Shown here: in pieces, positions 9,223-14,327 of the stretch | How the letters are laid out: the number at the start of each line of letters is the position of its first letter | How positions within the stretch are numbered: position 1 is the first letter of the stretch | Virus genome (UHGV): UHGV-0034894 | Length of the DNA stretch: 33,481 nt | Direction: 5' to 3' (one strand) | Source: a virus | Made by a program: the position numbers and the translations under genes | Notes under the pieces: model-generated | The model's database searches: none | Seen by the model: the letters and a program-made list of their open reading frames with translations, nothing else | What the model was told of the DNA's origin: nothing

Positions 9223-9525
9223 TTACTCCGTTGATACCAGTAAATGGCTGCGACCGCCCAGGTCAGTTTTTGTGGGGTAATCCTGTGTGTTGTCATCACA
9301 GACCACCACCAGCTTAAAACCAAGCCCCATACAGGCGTACTGCGCCAGCAGGTCAGCACCAGTGACGAGAGGAATACCGGAGATTACCGGCTCCCCTCTG
9401 TCGTTCTGCAGGTCCATAATCCAGTACAGATCGCGCCATATGATGCTAATCCGCCAGGTGACACCACCCAGGACGATGCTGAACTGCTGGTTGTCCGCTG
9501 TCAGCGGAATTTCCTGAATTGTCAT
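9223..9525 (-). CDS. Small tail protein
   Basis: Synteny only. Confidence 0.4.
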   Translation of the reverse strand: MTIQEIPLTADNQQFSIVLGGVTWRISIIWRDLYWIMDLQNDRGEPVISGIPLVTGADLLAQYACMGLGFKLVVVCDDNTQDYPTKTDLGGRSHLLVSTE

Positions 9526-10112
9526 TAGCCGCCCCCCAGTAATGACGCCACGTTACCCGTGATGCTTTTCAGCAGTGAAGTATCTGGAGGCTTTGTGGTT
9601 TTGTTGCCGCTGTTCTGTACCGCCGACGTGCTGGCCCCTTCCTTCATGTTGGTTTTATCCGCGACGGTAATCTGCTGTGTCCGGGAGATAATGACCTCCC
9701 TCAGGGTGAGGACGGCGGACAGGACGTTTTCGGTTGTCTTGTCCGTCGTCACTTCCAGCGCCCGGATCAACATGTTGCTGTACAGCCGTTTACCGGTTAC
9801 CACATCGAAGGGGATACGGCTTTCCTGCAGACCCAGTAGCTCCTGATACGTCTGCTGAGGACTCAGGCCGAGCAGGCTGGTAGCCGTCAGGTTACTGGCA
9901 AAATCCAGCAATGCGCCGCCACCGGCGAAACCAACCTCCATCACCACTTCTGACGGTTTTTTATAGGCATGATCAGCGACAGCGGCCCCGACCTCTACCG
10001 GATGCTCTGTTATTTCAAGCATATCTGTATGCTTCTCTGAAATAACAACACTGGGAACAATCATTCCTATTTTTCTGCTCTGCTGATGAAAAAGTGTAGA
10101 GAGAATATCCAC
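9525..10112 (-). CDS. Tail protein downstream of tape measure
   Basis: Synteny only; translationally coupled. Confidence 0.4.
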   Translation of the reverse strand: MDILSTLFHQQSRKIGMIVPSVVISEKHTDMLEITEHPVEVGAAVADHAYKKPSEVVMEVGFAGGGALLDFASNLTATSLLGLSPQQTYQELLGLQESRIPFDVVTGKRLYSNMLIRALEVTTDKTTENVLSAVLTLREVIISRTQQITVADKTNMKEGASTSAVQNSGNKTTKPPDTSLLKSITGNVASLLGGG

Positions 10113-12118
10113 TAACCCACCCTCACCTGATTACTTCGCATGACCTGAGCATTTGCAGACTGTTGCCGACGTGCAACCTCATTACCGACAGCGTGCGGAT
10201 CTCCGCCACCGTAAATGTGGTAGGTATTTTGCTGGTTAACCTCTGTCACTTTGCCACTAATTCCCGCCACGGCAGCCTTATTAATCAGCTCTCGAGAATA
10301 GATATTTCTTCCATTCTCATGCTGGATAATGCTGCTCATCAATGCTGACATGGTTTGCGGATCGCTCATATTCAGGGCAGCCCGGGGATCCACTCCCAGT
10401 CGTTGCGATACAGCCCTGATATACGCTGTTGTGTTGTTATTATCAGACGCAGGTGCCCAGGTAGAGATAATTTTCTCCACACTGTTTATTCCCCGTCCGG
10501 CGTACAGCATTAACTGACGAGCAAGAGCCCGTAATCCATCAAAGGCAGTTTCAAATCTGGCAAATCGCCCGCCCGGGCGTTCAAGAGAAGCCCCTGCCTG
10601 ACCAGCAAAATTAAGGTTTCCCGGATTGTTATTCCGTTCTCCTCGTTTCGTAGCCTGTGCATATTGTTCCGGCTCAGCACCTGGAATATCTGACTGAATA
10701 TTTGCGCCTTTTACGGTATGAGGATTACGACCAAAATCGGTATCAATGCCAAGCCAGCGCAATGAATCTCCAATATTTTGTTTCGTGTAATCCCAGGATG
10801 ACTTCGCACTGGCACCAATATTTTCGCGATCAGAGTACAAATACGCAGCATAAGCCATCCAGCCTTTTAACCACGGCGGGACCGGCAAACCTGATATTTT
10901 CCCGAAAGCCCCCAGAACCCTGGATACCCAGACACCCGCGATGAATGTACCAAGGATTTCCAGTGCATTTTGCCAGCCGCCAACACCATCTTTTAGTTCC
11001 AGAAGGTGATCACGAAGCCAGGTGATCGCATCCTTCGCTTTATCTATTGCCGGTTGCCATTTTTCCCAGTCGATAAGACTGTTACCGCCTTCTTTCCATG
11101 TTTTGTAGTCTTCCCACAAGAGACCGAGAGCCACGATCAGACCGGTAATCAGCCCTATAGGTGACATCCAGAAAGTAGAGTTAAGTATCCGCATGGCGAC
11201 AACCAGACCGCCGATAACCTCTATCAGGGTTTTCGTTTCGGCATCCAGTTTCCCCCACCACTCGATGATATCTCCGACACCATCGACTATCCGAAATGCT
11301 ACCCGCCCGACTATCTCACCCAGCCAGAGGATCCCCTTTATGACCTTTGTGATGGTGACTTCAATTTTGGGAAAATTTTCAATTATCTTTTTGCGCAGGT
11401 TATCAATCTGCCCCGCCAGTCCGTCCGCAAGATTCGATCCGATTTTGTCCCGCGCCATCCTGGCCATTTCACCGAGCGATTTCAGCGAGGTCATAAACCG
11501 GTTTGACGATAAGGCAGCCTGATCGGCATTAAATCCGATCGCTTTCACCATTTCTGAATACTGAGCGCTGAACTGCCCCACTCCGCGACGCATAGCCATC
11601 AGGGTATTTTCGTCAATGCCCAGCATCTGCGCATACTGGTTAGCCCGGTAATACGGCATGCTGCTGAGTTTCTGTCCAACGCCCGTAAAGATAGCAGCCA
11701 TGTCACGCATGTTACCGCTGGCATCACGGGTCTGTACGCCCAGGCGATTCAGAAAGCCTTCTGCTCCGGGATTGTTACGAATAAACCGGGAGAGGCTTTC
11801 CAGAGAAGATCGCGCAGCGTCCACACTGCCGCCAACCTGCGAAACCGCATAGCCAATAGACTGAATTCCCTGGACCGTCGCGCCGGTGCGCTGTGACGCC
11901 CAGTAAAGATTATCCAGGCCGGAGGCGATCTTAGCCGTGAAGGCCACCACGGACAGCGCAGCCCCTTCAACAGCCAGCCCCATTTTGATGACATTTGCAG
12001 TTGTACCGGCGAGGACAGAACCGAACTTTTTCGCTCCTGCATCATCCACACGGAAGCCAAGCGAGACGAGGAAATCTTTAATAGTTTCAGCGTTCATTAT
12101 CCTCTCTCCATTTCTCAA
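10112..12118 (-). CDS. Tail tape measure protein (668 aa)
   Basis: Long helical protein with central hydrophobic segments, after tube and chaperone genes; start may be at the internal Met at 12097. Confidence 0.8.
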   Translation of the reverse strand: MRNGERIMNAETIKDFLVSLGFRVDDAGAKKFGSVLAGTTANVIKMGLAVEGAALSVVAFTAKIASGLDNLYWASQRTGATVQGIQSIGYAVSQVGGSVDAARSSLESLSRFIRNNPGAEGFLNRLGVQTRDASGNMRDMAAIFTGVGQKLSSMPYYRANQYAQMLGIDENTLMAMRRGVGQFSAQYSEMVKAIGFNADQAALSSNRFMTSLKSLGEMARMARDKIGSNLADGLAGQIDNLRKKIIENFPKIEVTITKVIKGILWLGEIVGRVAFRIVDGVGDIIEWWGKLDAETKTLIEVIGGLVVAMRILNSTFWMSPIGLITGLIVALGLLWEDYKTWKEGGNSLIDWEKWQPAIDKAKDAITWLRDHLLELKDGVGGWQNALEILGTFIAGVWVSRVLGAFGKISGLPVPPWLKGWMAYAAYLYSDRENIGASAKSSWDYTKQNIGDSLRWLGIDTDFGRNPHTVKGANIQSDIPGAEPEQYAQATKRGERNNNPGNLNFAGQAGASLERPGGRFARFETAFDGLRALARQLMLYAGRGINSVEKIISTWAPASDNNNTTAYIRAVSQRLGVDPRAALNMSDPQTMSALMSSIIQHENGRNIYSRELINKAAVAGISGKVTEVNQQNTYHIYGGGDPHAVGNEVARRQQSANAQVMRSNQVRVG

Positions 12119-12329
12119 TGCGTCGCTGGTTATCCGCTTTTACCGCCAGATGGTCATTCAAGAGAGCAATGTCATACAAATCGACAGAGCCATCTTTAAG
12201 TGCTGTATAAGGAATTAACCCGGCGTCAACCGGATTGAGAAGGTAGGACAGCCCGTCCGGCAGGCTGTTAAACGTCAGCCCTGTTGCAGGCTCTGCGTCG
12301 TGCTGGTAAGGGGTGTAGGCAAAAAATTT
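12087..12329 (-). CDS. Candidate -1 frameshift extension of the tail assembly chaperone (GT / E+E'-like)
   Basis: Slippery heptamer A_AAT_TTT in zero frame near the chaperone 3' end; the -1 frame stays open about 80 codons, has no ATG, fills the gap to the tape measure start. Confidence 0.45.
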   Translation of the reverse strand, partial: KFFAYTPYQHDAEPATGLTFNSLPDGLSYLLNPVDAGLIPYTALKDGSVDLYDIALLNDHLAVKADNQRRIEKWREDNER

Positions 12330-12727
12330 CCCAGCGAATCGGCGACCACCCGCGCCACCAGCTGCAGCATGACCAGCAAGTCAATATCATCAAACATCAG
12401 TTCGCCCTGGGTAAATACCGGCACCCATCCGTCCATATGACGCCGCGATACCACCGCAAGACAGGGATGAATAATCGCATCGGTGTCATCTTCGGTCAGG
12501 GAAGACAGTTCCTCAGCGATACGCGGGAGCATGGTTTCAAACACCGGTTTTAACTGTTCGAATTTCACGGTGTCGATTTTGCCGTCAGCAGGCAAACGGG
12601 AGCGAATACTCCCGAAATCTGACATCATTCCTGCCAGCACCGGCAGAAGTTTGCGGGTCACTTTCAGCTGGTCAAAAACGCTGAGTTTTGCCGTGCGATA
12701 TTTCACGCCTTTAATTTCGAATTCCAT
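12275..12727 (-). CDS. Tail assembly chaperone
   Basis: Position between tail tube and tape measure genes; acidic small protein. Confidence 0.6.
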   Translation of the reverse strand: MEFEIKGVKYRTAKLSVFDQLKVTRKLLPVLAGMMSDFGSIRSRLPADGKIDTVKFEQLKPVFETMLPRIAEELSSLTEDDTDAIIHPCLAVVSRRHMDGWVPVFTQGELMFDDIDLLVMLQLVARVVADSLGNFLPTPLTSTTQSLQQG

Positions 12728-12730
12728 GCA

Positions 12731-13171
12731 TTAAAACTCCCCGAGAACCTGGTCAATCTTGCCGCAGTCAAACACCCACGGCATCGTATTACCGGTTTTA
12801 GCGTTGGCGTTATCCGGTTGTTTCTGGAACGCAACACTGCGTGCCGTGATGATGTCGCCGCTGACCTTGTTGCGGATAACGATAACGTTATTCCCCCATG
12901 TGGCAGAAGACTGGCTCTGTGCGTTATACGCCAGCGACAATTTTTTATTTGTCGGTGATGTCTTCAGAAGGTTAACGGTAATCGTCCCGCTTTTATCTGC
13001 ATGGAGGCTGTGCATCACTTCACCATCAGCACCGATGGTCATGGTGTTTTTAGGACCGCCCATCGCAACCACAATCCCCTCTTCAGAACTTGCCGAACCG
13101 TACCCGAGGTCAATCGAACCGGTCGGCCCGGTCAGCGTCGCAGTGACATCCATAAAAGAATAGGTAGACAT
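12731..13171 (-). CDS. Tail tube protein
   Basis: Size and position directly downstream of sheath gene. Confidence 0.65.
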   Translation of the reverse strand: MSTYSFMDVTATLTGPTGSIDLGYGSASSEEGIVVAMGGPKNTMTIGADGEVMHSLHADKSGTITVNLLKTSPTNKKLSLAYNAQSQSSATWGNNVIVIRNKVSGDIITARSVAFQKQPDNANAKTGNTMPWVFDCGKIDQVLGEF

Positions 13172-13181
13172 TCACTTCCCC

Positions 13182-14327
13182 TTAGCGAACAACGTTAATC
13201 TGTACGTCAGCGTAATGAACCGCGCCTGCAAGTTTTATTGCAGCCTGAATCACCGGAGCCTTACGGGCTTCACGTTCTGATTGTGCCTGTTCATCCAGCG
13301 GCTGGGCGTATACGTAATAACCTTTGGGCAGCGTGTCACCTGATGACAACTGGCCAAGGTCGCCACCGTTCCATACGCCCGGAGCAATCAGTCCATTCTG
13401 AACGGCCTGATCCAGTGATTTTTCAACATTTGATAACAGTCGGGTAATACCGGCTTCAGTCTGGGGAACCTTCGTGGTGCTGGTATAAAGCAGGTTATAG
13501 AGGTTGGTCTGCACATAATTCTGTAACCAGTCCAGGCCGTGGCGTTCATCAAAGAAATCGCCGTTAGCCATCACTCCCTGCTGGAGGATAGCTGTATCAT
13601 TCTGGTAGTACACGAACACATTGCAGTTTTTTGCATCAAGTGCCGATGCCTGGCTGACTGTCAGTGTTTCATACCCGACACCCGGCTCCTGCTTAAACTT
13701 GAGCGTAATCGCGGTATTACTGCCATTGAAATTAACCGTGAATGCCCGGCCAAATGCAGATAACGCAGCGAATTTATTACCCGATGAATATTGTATAAAA
13801 CTGCGTGAATATCCGGCGCTTTTCAGTTTTGATGCCAAATCATCTCTGGATGCAGTCTGCAGGCATTTCTCATCGCTTGTCGTAATCGCCAGAATACGGC
13901 TTACAGAAGAGGATTCGATCGCCGCAGCCACTTTCAGCCAGTCTGCATCCGGAATATCTGCATCGTCTGCAATCCCCAGCCCATACCATGAAGTATAATC
14001 AAGCATGGCATTCACAGCCTGCTCCAGCGTCTCAGGCGTGGCCTGTTCGCTGTCTCCCTTCGTTTTCACCCAACGACCAACAAAAACCTCCTGAGGTTTC
14101 GGTGATTGTGAGAAAAACACCTGCGCAGCTTTATATTCTGGTGATTCCACGCCAAAATCTTTTCCAATATCTTCCGCGGCAGAATAACGGCGAATGCGCT
14201 CACTTACCGGAATGATTGTGGACGGGCCGAGAATGAGTAATGCACCAAAATTTCGCCCTGATGCTGCACGCGGCGACATGATCACATCAACATTAACAAC
14301 GTTTGATACAGGCAAGCCCTGTGCCAT
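13182..14327 (-). CDS. Tail sheath protein (SfV/Mu-like contractile tail)
   Basis: Size and synteny; resembles DUF3383-type sheath proteins from memory. Confidence 0.6.

What the first reader, a model, noticed from the sequence alone, without database searches (positions are those of the whole stretch)
12087..12329. Candidate programmed -1 frameshift at the end of the tail assembly chaperone gene
The chaperone ORF contains the heptamer A_AAT_TTT in the zero frame about 50 nt before its stop. The -1 frame from that point is open for about 80 codons with no ATG, spans the otherwise ORF-less 157-bp gap to the tape measure gene and ends just past its start. This matches the conserved GT / E-E' arrangement of tailed phages.
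Basis: seen in the sequence. Interest (0 to 1): 0.5.

Follow-up and report, generated by a model that had tools for sequence, protein, structure and literature searches.

The report
Phage tail chaperone programmed -1 frameshift

Summary
The 150-aa chaperone gene (12727..12275, Pfam Phage_TAC_15) carries the in-phase tract G_GGA_AAT_TTT_TTG (12332..12320) 49-55 nt before its stop. From there the -1 frame is open for 79-81 codons, has no ATG or GTG, fills the 177-nt gap, and stops 8 nt past the tape-measure ATG.

That frame is coding. It matches Pfam DUF6889 (E=1e-20). Its pN/pS is 0.37-0.39, against about 1.3-1.4 for the other two sense-strand readings, and this starts right after the slip tract. 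An in-phase T6 run followed by a long open -1 frame is kept in 47 of 49 relatives with an intact chaperone gene, down to 34% identity. Synonymous sites in the tract are frozen. No RNA stimulator was found.

This is a lambda G/GT and P2 E/E+E' type programmed -1 frameshift; P2 uses the same TTTTTTG. Which heptamer slips is unresolved: A_AAU_UUU is in the class that shifts efficiently in E. coli, and T_TTT_TTN is the only universal one.

GenBank leaves the gap empty. RefSeq calls a 54-aa CTG-start "DUF6889 family protein". Only Klebsiella phage Mulock carries the joined CDS. The biology is ordinary; the value is correcting annotation.

The parts
12275..12727 (-). Tail assembly chaperone gene ('G'), 150 aa, zero frame, stop TGA at 12277..12275
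   Evidence: ORF. Pfam PF21822 Phage_TAC_15 at E=4.9e-31. phrog_1688 tail assembly chaperone at 3.6e-65. pN/pS 0.38-0.43.
12320..12332 (-). Extended slippery tract G_GGA_AAT_TTT_TTG: three overlapping in-phase X_XXY_YYZ heptamers
   Evidence: Codon phase; heptamers listed. The nucleotides are identical in 23 of 32 representatives sharing less than 90% identity. Codon choice is frozen: TTT 32/32, AAT 29/29, GGA 27/32. Elsewhere in the same proteins the figures are TTT 34-62%, GGA 0-17% and TTG 3-37%.
12323..12329 (-).
   Evidence: In phase. Present in 27 of 32 representatives. It belongs to the H_HH.U_UU.Y class that is efficient in E. coli (PMC4066793). It is absent or blocked by a -1 stop in L102, L119, L123, L127 and L130 among the representatives, and also in L121.
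12320..12326 (-). T_TTT_TTG, the P2-type heptamer; its in-phase T6 run is the only invariant element
   Evidence: In-phase T_TTT_TTN is present in all 49 relatives with an intact chaperone ORF and in all 80 near-identical IMG/VR loci. P2 E/E+E' shifts on TTTTTTG (PMC3091744).
12087..12326 (-). -1 frame segment ('T'): 79 sense codons plus TGA at 12089..12087. It is translated only as the C-terminal part of a fusion of about 213 aa
   Evidence: Open frame shown. pN/pS is 0.37-0.39 in this frame, against about 1.3-1.4 in the other two sense frames; every antisense frame has stops. No ATG or GTG in the frame.
12096..12212 (-). Part of the -1 frame that matches Pfam DUF6889 (residues 38-76 of the 78-aa extension)
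   Evidence: PF21829 at E=1.2e-20, profile positions 2-40 of 40. phrog_4364 at 1.9e-23.
12087..12251 (-). RefSeq/PGAP CDS 'DUF6889 family protein' WP_071819661.1, 54 aa with a CTG start: judged an annotation artefact of the unrecognised frameshift
   Evidence: Annotation in NZ_AP022003. The start codon is CTG. Database fragments of 43-78 aa begin at no fewer than six different positions. -1 frame conservation extends 25 codons upstream of this start.
10112..12097 (-). Tape measure protein gene, ATG at 12097, with its Shine-Dalgarno GGAGAGAGG at 12109..12101 inside the last T codons. The T stop overlaps TMP codons 3-4
   Evidence: phrog_2276 at 2.7e-265. ATG start as in the GenBank and RefSeq records. 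Sequence. The overlap is conserved in relatives.
12731..14327 (-). Upstream context: tail sheath (14327..13182) and tail tube (13171..12731) genes
   Evidence: PF11863 DUF3383 at 4.4e-101 with phrog_205 tail sheath, and PF11681 at 8.8e-61.

Best explanation
This is a programmed -1 ribosomal frameshift of the lambda G/GT and P2 E/E+E' type.

Most ribosomes translating the chaperone gene stop at 12277..12275 and make the 150-aa chaperone 'G'. A minority slip back one nucleotide on the tract G_GGA_AAU_UUU_UUG (12332..12320). They then read the -1 frame to the TGA at 12089..12087 and make a fusion 'G-T' of about 213 aa, whose C-terminal part is the DUF6889 domain.

The shift happens on A_AAU_UUU, on U_UUU_UUG, or on both. 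Dual-tRNA slippage at U_UUU_UUG predicts the junction ...GNFL-AYTP. Slippage at A_AAU_UUU or G_GGA_AAU, or P-site-only slippage on the U-run, predicts ...GNFF-AYTP. No RNA stimulator seems to be needed.

By analogy with lambda, G and the G part of G-T would coat the tape measure protein, and the T domain would recruit the tube protein. Both would then leave the finished tail.

Shown here: the architecture, coding of the -1 frame, nucleotide-level conservation of the tract, and absence of a start codon. Inferred: that the shift is ribosomal, its efficiency, which heptamer is used, and the assembly function.
For: (1) Position and family. The gene lies between the tube and tape measure genes. It hits Pfam Phage_TAC_15 at 4.9e-31 and phrog_1688 at 3.6e-65.

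(2) The -1 extension is protein-coding. It hits DUF6889 at 1.2e-20 and phrog_4364 at 1.9e-23. Half of all substitutions fall on its third codon positions. pN/pS is 0.37-0.39, against about 1.3-1.4 in the other two sense frames; the antisense frames all contain stops.

(3) Constraint switches frame at the tract. In the first 10 codons after it, pN/pS is 0.39 in the -1 frame and 1.28 in the zero frame. The conserved peptide FFARTPRQRD begins at the tract.

(4) No independent start. There is no ATG or GTG, and the first TTG is 30 codons from the stop. PGAP resorts to CTG. Gene callers chose no fewer than six different starts among near-identical sequences.

(5) Conservation. An in-phase T_TTT_TTN followed by a -1 frame open for 70-84 codons is found in 47 of 49 relatives with an intact chaperone ORF, from Enterobacterales to a Rhizobiales MAG at 34% identity. 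The +1 frame typically closes within 2-16 codons.

(6) Synonymous sites are frozen. TTT 32/32, AAT 29/29 and GGA 27/32, against 34-62% and 0-17% at control columns.

(7) Precedents. P2 E/E+E' shifts on TTTTTTG with no downstream structure (PMC3091744). A_AAU_UUU and U_UUU_UUY belong to the efficient class in E. coli (PMC4066793). 31 of 32 representatives keep at least one heptamer of that class.

(8) Klebsiella phage Mulock carries a joined 'frameshift product' CDS at the same tract.

(9) A one-T insertion in the run (T7, locus L133) gives exactly the predicted 213-aa protein with both Pfam domains.
Against: There is no experimental evidence for any member of this family. No proteomics or reporter data were found, and no paper covers the identical phages.

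No stimulatory element was detected. Downstream folding is no better than shuffled sequence (z = -0.47 and -0.62). No hairpin is shared among 32 relatives. SD-like sequences upstream vary in sequence and spacing. The efficiency may therefore be low and cannot be predicted.

U_UUU_UUG and G_GGA_AAU are not in the efficient class in E. coli.

The single-sequence statistics are weak.

The comparative data cannot separate ribosomal from transcriptional slippage. The chaperone function of G and G-T is by analogy only, and the AlphaFold model was too poor to test the fold (mean pLDDT 42.5).
Confidence: 0.85

Rival explanations
1. Transcriptional slippage. RNA polymerase occasionally adds one extra U while copying the T6 run. 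Standard translation of that minority mRNA then gives the same G-T fusion, with junction GNFF-AYTP.
For: The invariant element is a homopolymer run, T6 or T7, in all 49 relatives. A DNA-level T7 variant gives precisely the fusion protein. The comparative data cannot distinguish the two mechanisms.
Against: Productive transcriptional slippage in bacteria is described for runs of about 9 A or T (PMC5009743); here the run is 6-7. The run is kept strictly in the X_XXY_YYZ phase in every relative, which matters for tRNA re-pairing but not for the polymerase. The flanking GGA AAT codons are also frozen, and the resulting A_AAU_UUU heptamer is a known efficient ribosomal motif. P2's TTTTTTG is treated in the literature as a translational frameshift.
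Confidence: 0.07
2. The DUF6889 region is an independent small gene, as RefSeq annotates it (54 aa, CTG start at 12251). It would be translated by its own initiation, or by termination-reinitiation at the chaperone stop (CTGA).
For: PGAP and other pipelines annotate free-standing proteins of 43-78 aa. In the window the chaperone stop overlaps a CTG in the -1 frame (CTGA).
Against: There is no ATG or GTG in the frame and no convincing Shine-Dalgarno before any CTG. The called starts differ among near-identical sequences. The stop context is TTAA in SEN34 and Mulock, so CTGA is not conserved. Purifying selection in the -1 frame and the conserved FFARTPRQRD peptide begin at the slip tract, 16 codons upstream of the chaperone stop and 25 codons upstream of the PGAP start. 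In L102, L119 and L123 the -1 frame opens exactly at the T-run.
Confidence: 0.05
3. Chance or non-functional. The open -1 frame and the heptamers are coincidental, and the 177-nt gap is non-coding spacer or regulatory DNA.
For: Taken alone, the window gives only weak statistics: 62 in-phase heptamers, and 7% of positions have a -1 frame open for at least 79 codons. One terminator-like hairpin lies at 12236..12217.
Against: The frame gives a curated Pfam domain hit at 1.2e-20 and pN/pS of 0.37, and it is conserved across 47 loci. The terminator-like hit is at the level expected by chance (1 found, 1.2 expected), no promoter-like site was found, and there is no Rfam match.
Confidence: 0.01

Closest known systems
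Bacteriophage P2 gpE / gpE+E' (FETUD tail operon; Christie et al. 2002, Xu et al. 2004, as cited in PMC3091744)
   Same: It is a contractile-tail phage of E. coli. The chaperone gene lies between the tube and tape measure genes. The shift is -1 onto an ORF that has no start of its own. The slip sequence is the same, TTTTTTG, and no downstream RNA structure is involved.
   Different: No sequence similarity was detected: Pfam reports only Phage_TAC_15 for this protein. Here the T-run is preceded by GGGAAA, which creates two further in-phase heptamers. The products are 150 and about 213 aa, against 91 and 142 aa in P2.
Bacteriophage lambda gpG / gpGT (Levin et al. 1993; Xu et al. 2004, 2013, 2014, as summarised in PMC5009743)
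   Same: It has the same genetic logic and presumably the same function: an abundant short chaperone plus a rare trans-frame fusion whose T part ends next to or overlapping the tape measure gene. The first heptamer here, G_GGA_AAT, resembles lambda's G_GGA_AAG.
   Different: Lambda is a siphovirus. Its A-site codon is AAG (Lys), which is the efficient one in E. coli; AAU (Asn) is not in the efficient class. It belongs to a different Pfam family. The 30:1 ratio and the binding partners are measured for lambda and unknown here.
Klebsiella phage Mulock CPT_Mulock_014/015 (MN098327), 'tape measure chaperone' and 'tape measure chaperone frameshift product'
   Same: It is a true homologue: 59% identity in the chaperone, the same GGGAAATTTTTTG tract, the same DUF6889-type extension of about 80 codons, and a stop just past the tape measure ATG.
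   Different: The join is a curator's annotation only. It is not mentioned in the genome announcement and is not tested. The join coordinate was not visible with these tools.
Stimulator-dependent bacterial -1 frameshifts (dnaX, IS911, IS3)
   Same: They use an X_XXY_YYZ heptamer with tandem tRNA slippage.
   Different: Those use an upstream Shine-Dalgarno-like element and/or a downstream hairpin or pseudoknot. Neither is conserved here.

Membership tests
G/GT-type tail assembly chaperone with programmed frameshift (Xu, Hendrix and Duda 2004) | Gene located between the major tail (tube) gene and the tape measure gene | tested here: met
   The order on the minus strand is sheath, tube, chaperone, tape measure protein.
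G/GT-type tail assembly chaperone with programmed frameshift (Xu, Hendrix and Duda 2004) | A second ORF that overlaps the 3' end of the first in another frame, lacks its own start and RBS, and ends near the tape measure start | tested here: met
   The -1 frame is open from 12326 to 12087. It has no ATG or GTG and stops 8 nt after the tape measure ATG.
G/GT-type tail assembly chaperone with programmed frameshift (Xu, Hendrix and Duda 2004) | A slippery sequence in the overlap, in the correct phase, conserved among relatives | tested here: met
   In-phase T_TTT_TTN is present in 49/49 relatives and A_AAT_TTT in 27/32 representatives. Synonymous sites are frozen.
G/GT-type tail assembly chaperone with programmed frameshift (Xu, Hendrix and Duda 2004) | The downstream frame is under protein-level selection | tested here: met
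   pN/pS is 0.37-0.39, against about 1.3-1.4 in the other two sense frames. DUF6889 hit at 1.2e-20.
G/GT-type tail assembly chaperone with programmed frameshift (Xu, Hendrix and Duda 2004) | Both the short and the trans-frame protein are made from one start, in a fixed ratio, and both are needed for tail assembly | not testable with these tools
   This needs western blot or mass spectrometry plus genetics. No published data were found.
G/GT-type tail assembly chaperone with programmed frameshift (Xu, Hendrix and Duda 2004) | The G part binds the tape measure protein and the T part binds the tube protein; neither is present in virions | not testable with these tools
   This is inferred from lambda (PMC5009743). 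The structure model was unusable (pLDDT 42.5).
Pfam Phage_TAC_15 (PF21822) | Score above the curated gathering threshold | tested here: met
   108.3 bits against a cut-off of 22; E=4.9e-31; profile positions 1-122 of 127.
Pfam DUF6889 (PF21829) | Score above the curated gathering threshold (tested on the -1 frame translation) | tested here: met
   73.4 bits against a cut-off of 23.9; E=1.2e-20; profile positions 2-40 of 40.
P2 gpE / gpE+E' | Slip on TTTTTTG without a downstream structure | tested here: met
   T_TTT_TTG at 12326..12320. Folding z-scores are about 0. P2 facts are from PMC3091744.
P2 gpE / gpE+E' | Sequence homology to P2 gpE | tested here: not met
   Pfam and PHROGs scans at E<=0.01 returned only Phage_TAC_15, phrog_1688 and phrog_1613. 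It works like P2 E/E+E' but is not a sequence member of that family.
Stimulator-dependent -1 PRF (dnaX / IS3 type) | A conserved downstream hairpin or pseudoknot 5-9 nt after the heptamer, or an SD-like element 6-17 nt upstream | tested here: not met
   No stable or shared structure was found. SD-like sequences vary in sequence and spacing among relatives.

The most novel reading that the evidence does not exclude
The family may use a compound slippery tract and not a single heptamer. In most members, two overlapping sites, A_AAU_UUU and U_UUU_UUG, would both contribute, giving two fusion isoforms that differ at one residue (F or L at position 136). Evolution would then trade one efficient motif for another. 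Lineages that lose A_AAU_UUU, some through a -1 stop directly before the run, carry U_UUU_UUU instead, so that 31 of 32 representatives keep at least one motif of the class that is efficient in E. coli. A corollary is that the Pfam family DUF6889, and the RefSeq/NCBI entries named 'DUF6889 family protein' or 'NTP pyrophosphohydrolase', are never free-standing proteins. They would be the T domain of this chaperone.
Probability: 0.35. Interest if true: 0.35.

Novelty: new member of a known kind. Interest (0 to 1): 0.25.

Why it matters
The mechanism is textbook phage biology, so the gain is practical. The prophage or phage type is common: 368 of 5426 complete E. coli genomes carry this region, and it occurs widely in Enterobacterales.

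Its tail chaperone locus is annotated wrongly or incompletely almost everywhere. GenBank phage records leave a 177-nt hole. RefSeq lists a 54-aa CTG-start 'DUF6889 family protein'. Other records call the fragment 'NTP pyrophosphohydrolase'.

Recognising the frameshift gives DUF6889 a function: it is the T domain of a G-T tail assembly chaperone. It removes spurious small proteins from databases. It also adds a well-sampled family to the training and test sets of frameshift predictors, with about 32 divergent representatives, a compound slip tract and natural variants.

The overlapping heptamers make a convenient natural system for asking which motif E. coli ribosomes actually use when no stimulator is present.

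Tried and rejected
(1) Downstream RNA stimulator. Folding the 90 nt and the 261 nt after the tract gave z = -0.47 and -0.62 against dinucleotide shuffles. In 32 relatives the 70 nt downstream gave z-scores scattered around 0 and no shared hairpin. Rejected.

(2) Upstream SD-like stimulator. GGGTGG ends 16-19 nt upstream in the window, outside the known optimum. It is replaced by other sequences at other spacings in relatives. Not supported.

(3) Structure-based membership test. The AlphaFold2 model of the natural in-frame fusion P0001, built with a 39-row alignment, reached only mean pLDDT 42.5 and pTM 0.26. I therefore ran no fold search. phmmer against PDB sequences found nothing at E<=1.

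(4) Regulatory reading of the gap. No promoter-like site was found. One terminator-like hairpin was found, which is the chance level. There was no Rfam match except a chance miRNA hit at E=0.98.

(5) Termination-reinitiation at CTGA. Rejected because the stop context is TTAA in relatives and -1 frame conservation starts upstream of the stop.

(6) The plus-strand ORFs across the region (11937..12218 and 12284..12553). In the part tested (about 12087-12270) the antisense frames have stops, and pN/pS is above 1 or 0.54 with stops. Rejected as coding.

(7) The claim that only T_TTT_TTG is functional. I held this at first because it is the only universal heptamer. I withdrew it after reading Sharma et al. 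2014 and after the GGA codon control.

(8) The association between loss of A_AAT_TTT and Z=T gives Fisher p=0.002. A rough NJ tree shows it rests on about three independent events, so it is only suggestive.

(9) Literature. Nothing was found on the identical phages. The Mulock and SEN34 papers do not mention the frameshift. Christie et al. 2002 is not held.
Full report
WHAT IS THERE

All genes in this part of the window lie on the minus strand. Read 5' to 3' on that strand, the order is:
- tail sheath, 14327..13182 (Pfam DUF3383, E=4.4e-101; phrog_205);
- tail tube, 13171..12731 (PF11681, E=8.8e-61);
- a 150-aa tail assembly chaperone, 12727..12275 (PF21822 Phage_TAC_15, E=4.9e-31; phrog_1688, E=3.6e-65);
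- a stretch without an annotated gene;
- the tape measure protein, starting at ATG 12097 (phrog_2276, E=2.7e-265).

Near the end of the chaperone the zero frame reads CTG GGA AAT TTT TTG (12334..12320). It is flanked by two more in-phase X_XXY_YYZ heptamers that overlap it: G_GGA_AAT (12332..12326) and T_TTT_TTG (12326..12320).

From the tract the -1 frame stays open for 79-81 codons. It crosses the chaperone stop (12277..12275) and fills the gap. It ends at TGA 12089..12087, 8 nt after the tape measure ATG.

The gap is 177 nt if measured to the ATG that GenBank and RefSeq use.

The -1 frame has no ATG or GTG. Its first TTG is 30 codons from the stop.

IS IT MORE THAN CHANCE?

From the window alone, only weakly. 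ORFs of at least 100 aa in the window hold 62 in-phase heptamers. About 7% of in-ORF positions are followed by a -1 frame open for at least 79 codons. The case rests on three other lines of evidence.

First, the -1 translation matches curated families. It hits Pfam DUF6889 at E=1.2e-20, above the gathering threshold, and phrog_4364 at E=1.9e-23.

Second, the arrangement is conserved in relatives. I fetched 47 loci from different bacterial species, with 34-86% chaperone identity, plus phages YP3, SEN34 and Mulock.
- Every one of the 49 loci with an intact chaperone ORF has an in-phase T_TTT_TTN.
- In 47 of these the -1 frame then runs for 70-84 codons to just past the tape measure start.
- The +1 frame typically closes within 2-16 codons.
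- The exceptions are decayed loci. L092 and L126 have broken chaperone genes. L121, an Arsenophonus MAG, has a -1 stop. L115 has a deletion that fuses T to a downstream gene.

Third, substitution patterns show which frame is coding. Over 46 distinct sequences:
- half of all differences fall on the third codon position of the -1 frame;
- pN/pS is 0.37-0.39 in that frame, the same as in the chaperone itself (0.38-0.43);
- pN/pS is about 1.3-1.4 in the other two sense frames;
- every antisense frame has stops.
The constraint changes frame at the tract. In the first 10 codons after it, which are aligned without gaps, pN/pS is 0.39 in the -1 frame and 1.28 in the zero frame. The conserved peptide FFARTPRQRD starts there. 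The last 14 residues or so of the short chaperone are therefore unconstrained, while the overlapping -1 codons are translated.

THE SLIP TRACT IS CONSTRAINED AS NUCLEOTIDES

I took 32 representatives sharing less than 90% identity and compared codon choice.
- At the tract: TTT 32/32, AAT 29/29, GGA 27/32.
- At other conserved Phe, Gly and Leu columns of the same proteins: TTT 34-62%, GGA 0-17%, TTG 3-37%.
Residue 136 is not even conserved as an amino acid (Leu or Phe), but it is always TTN. All 80 near-identical IMG/VR loci keep GGAAA-T6-G.

WHICH HEPTAMER?

The data do not settle this.

In favour of T_TTT_TTN:
- It is the only universal site.
- In L102, L119, L121 and L123 a -1-frame stop (TAG, TAA or TGA) sits directly 5' of the T-run, and L127 and L130 lack the upstream heptamers. 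The shift must occur on the T-run in those loci.
- P2 E/E+E' shifts on exactly TTTTTTG (PMC3091744).

- Sharma et al. 2014 measured all 64 heptamers in E. coli. They place H_HH.U_UU.Y among the efficient motifs. That class includes A_AAU_UUU and U_UUU_UUY but not U_UUU_UUG or G_GGA_AAU (PMC4066793).
- The frozen third base of GGA is needed for A_AAT_TTT and is not explained by a shift on the T-run alone.
- Representatives that lack A_AAT_TTT mostly have T_TTT_TTT (4 of 5). Those that have it mostly end in TTG (25 of 27). Fisher's exact test gives p=0.002, and 31 of 32 keep at least one motif of the efficient class.
- A rough NJ tree shows that this association rests on about three independent events, so it is only suggestive.

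My reading is that the tract is compound and both sites may be used in this window.

The products differ by one residue. Dual-tRNA slippage on U_UUU_UUG gives ...GNFL-AYTP. Slippage at either upstream heptamer gives ...GNFF-AYTP. So does P-site-only slippage on the U-run, and so does transcriptional insertion of one U.

STIMULATORS

None was found.
- The 90 nt and the 261 nt after the tract fold no better than shuffled sequence (z = -0.47 and -0.62).
- The 32 relatives share no hairpin.
- Upstream SD-like sequences vary in sequence and spacing.
- Rfam gives nothing.
- Promoter and terminator scans are at chance level.
This agrees with what is reported for P2 and its relatives.

HOW IT MOST LIKELY WORKS

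Most ribosomes terminate at 12277..12275 and make the 150-aa chaperone. A minority slip -1 on the tract and make a fusion of about 213 aa that ends in the DUF6889 domain.

The function is inferred from lambda (PMC5009743). There, many copies of G and a few of G-T coat the tape measure protein through the G part. The T domain recruits the tail tube protein, and both chaperones are absent from the finished tail.

The T reading frame ends 11 nt into the tape measure gene. The tape measure Shine-Dalgarno, GGAGAGAGG (12109..12101), lies inside the conserved KWRE codons of T.

Architecture, coding and conservation are shown here. The ribosomal nature of the shift, its efficiency, the site used and the assembly role are inferred.

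RIVAL EXPLANATIONS

Transcriptional slippage on the T-run cannot be excluded by comparative data, but it is unlikely.
- The run is 6-7 nt, and productive bacterial cases involve about 9 (PMC5009743).
- The run is always in the heptamer phase.
- The flanking codons are frozen too.

Independent translation of DUF6889, which is the RefSeq model with a CTG start at 12251, is contradicted on several counts.
- There is no conventional start.
- Gene callers used no fewer than six different starts for near-identical sequences.
- -1 frame conservation extends 25 codons upstream of that start.
- In several relatives the frame opens exactly at the T-run.

Reinitiation at the CTGA stop-start overlap is not conserved; the context is TTAA in SEN34 and Mulock.

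COMPARISON WITH WHAT IS KNOWN

In mechanism and layout this is the G/GT arrangement of Xu, Hendrix and Duda (2004). It is closest to P2 E/E+E', which is also a contractile tail, uses the same TTTTTTG and has no stimulator.

It is not a sequence relative of P2 gpE or lambda gpG. Pfam and PHROGs place it in Phage_TAC_15 and phrog_1688.

Within its own family the frameshift has been recognised once. This was by curators of Klebsiella phage Mulock (MN098327), whose joined CDS 'tape measure chaperone frameshift product' spans the same tract. The genome announcement does not mention it.

Other records miss it.
- The identical phages vB_EcoM-606R2, -689R2, -611R5 and -683R1, Yersinia phage YP3 and Salmonella phage SEN34 (Brunovirus) all leave the gap empty.
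- RefSeq E. coli genomes carry a 54-aa 'DUF6889 family protein'.
- Other records name such fragments 'NTP pyrophosphohydrolase'.

A large protein database holds one full-length fusion, P0001 (213 aa, both Pfam domains). Its DNA, locus L133 from a Logan assembly of SRR23924998, has T7 instead of T6. It is therefore a one-base insertion or a sequencing error in the slip run, and it gives exactly the predicted trans-frame product.

VERDICT

The slip site is a compound tract whose invariant core is the in-phase T6 run. The gap is 177 nt.

This is a new, well-supported member of a known kind, without experimental proof. Specialists would not be surprised. The value lies in correcting widespread annotation, since 368 of 5426 complete E. 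coli genomes carry the region. It also assigns DUF6889 as the T domain of a tail assembly chaperone.

Noticed in passing
L133:1896-1909 (Logan assembly of SRR23924998); protein P0001: A near-identical prophage copy has T7 instead of T6 in the slip run. This fuses chaperone and DUF6889 in frame into a 213-aa protein, and the 90% cluster has 16 member sequences. It is either a homopolymer sequencing error or a natural mutant that would make only the fusion; in lambda, making only the fusion blocks tail assembly.
   Followed up: partly
window 12087-12251 (-); proteins P0122, P0124, P0125, P0127, P0129: Many NCBI records name the short -1 frame fragments 'NTP pyrophosphohydrolase'. Nothing in the sequence supports that name. 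The only family hits are DUF6889 and phrog_4364, which has no known function. It looks like a propagated misannotation.
   Followed up: partly
window 10112-12097 (-): The C-terminal third of the tape measure protein (about residues 407-650) matches endolysin and 'tail injection transglycosylase' PHROGs (phrog_873 at 1.7e-53, phrog_7182 at 1.6e-26). The tape measure protein therefore seems to carry a peptidoglycan-degrading domain.
   Followed up: no
window 12101-12109 and 12087-12097 (-): The tape measure Shine-Dalgarno, GGAGAGAGG, is embedded in the conserved KWRE codons at the end of the -1 frame. The -1 frame stop overlaps tape measure codons 3-4. This 11-nt overlap is kept in most relatives, so these bases are under a double constraint, and some translational coupling is possible.
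   Followed up: partly
window 9525-9540 (-): An in-phase G_GGG_GGC heptamer lies 10 nt before the stop of the 195-aa ORF 10112..9525, and the -1 frame after it is open for 104 codons. That frame is simply the next gene (9525..9223), which has its own ATG overlapping the stop, so it is probably an ordinary gene overlap and not a frameshift.
   Followed up: no
L115 (Izhakiella australiensis NZ_MRUL01000024.1), about 1850-2680: In this relative the -1 frame continues for 258 codons after the slip run. It leaves the DUF6889 sequence midway and runs into a different protein. This indicates a deletion that removed the end of T and the start of the tape measure region, so the prophage is probably defective.
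   Followed up: no
protein P0076 (212 aa, Logan): This is a chimeric ORF. A DUF977-like N-terminal part (PF06163) is joined to residues from about 29 onward of a chaperone homologue. It probably comes from a rearranged prophage or a misassembly.
   Followed up: no
window 12217-12236 (-): An 8-bp hairpin, AATCCGGTTGACGCCGGGTT, lies inside the -1 frame codons for the conserved NPVDAGL motif, about 85 nt after the slip tract. It scored as terminator-like, but at the frequency expected by chance. It is too far downstream to act as a classical frameshift stimulator.
   Followed up: partly
whole window; The region occurs in 368 of 5426 complete E. coli genomes, always on the chromosome. It is 100% identical to induced phages vB_EcoM-606R2, -689R2, -611R5 and -683R1. 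The window is therefore from a widespread temperate myovirus related to Brunovirus SEN34.
   Followed up: partly
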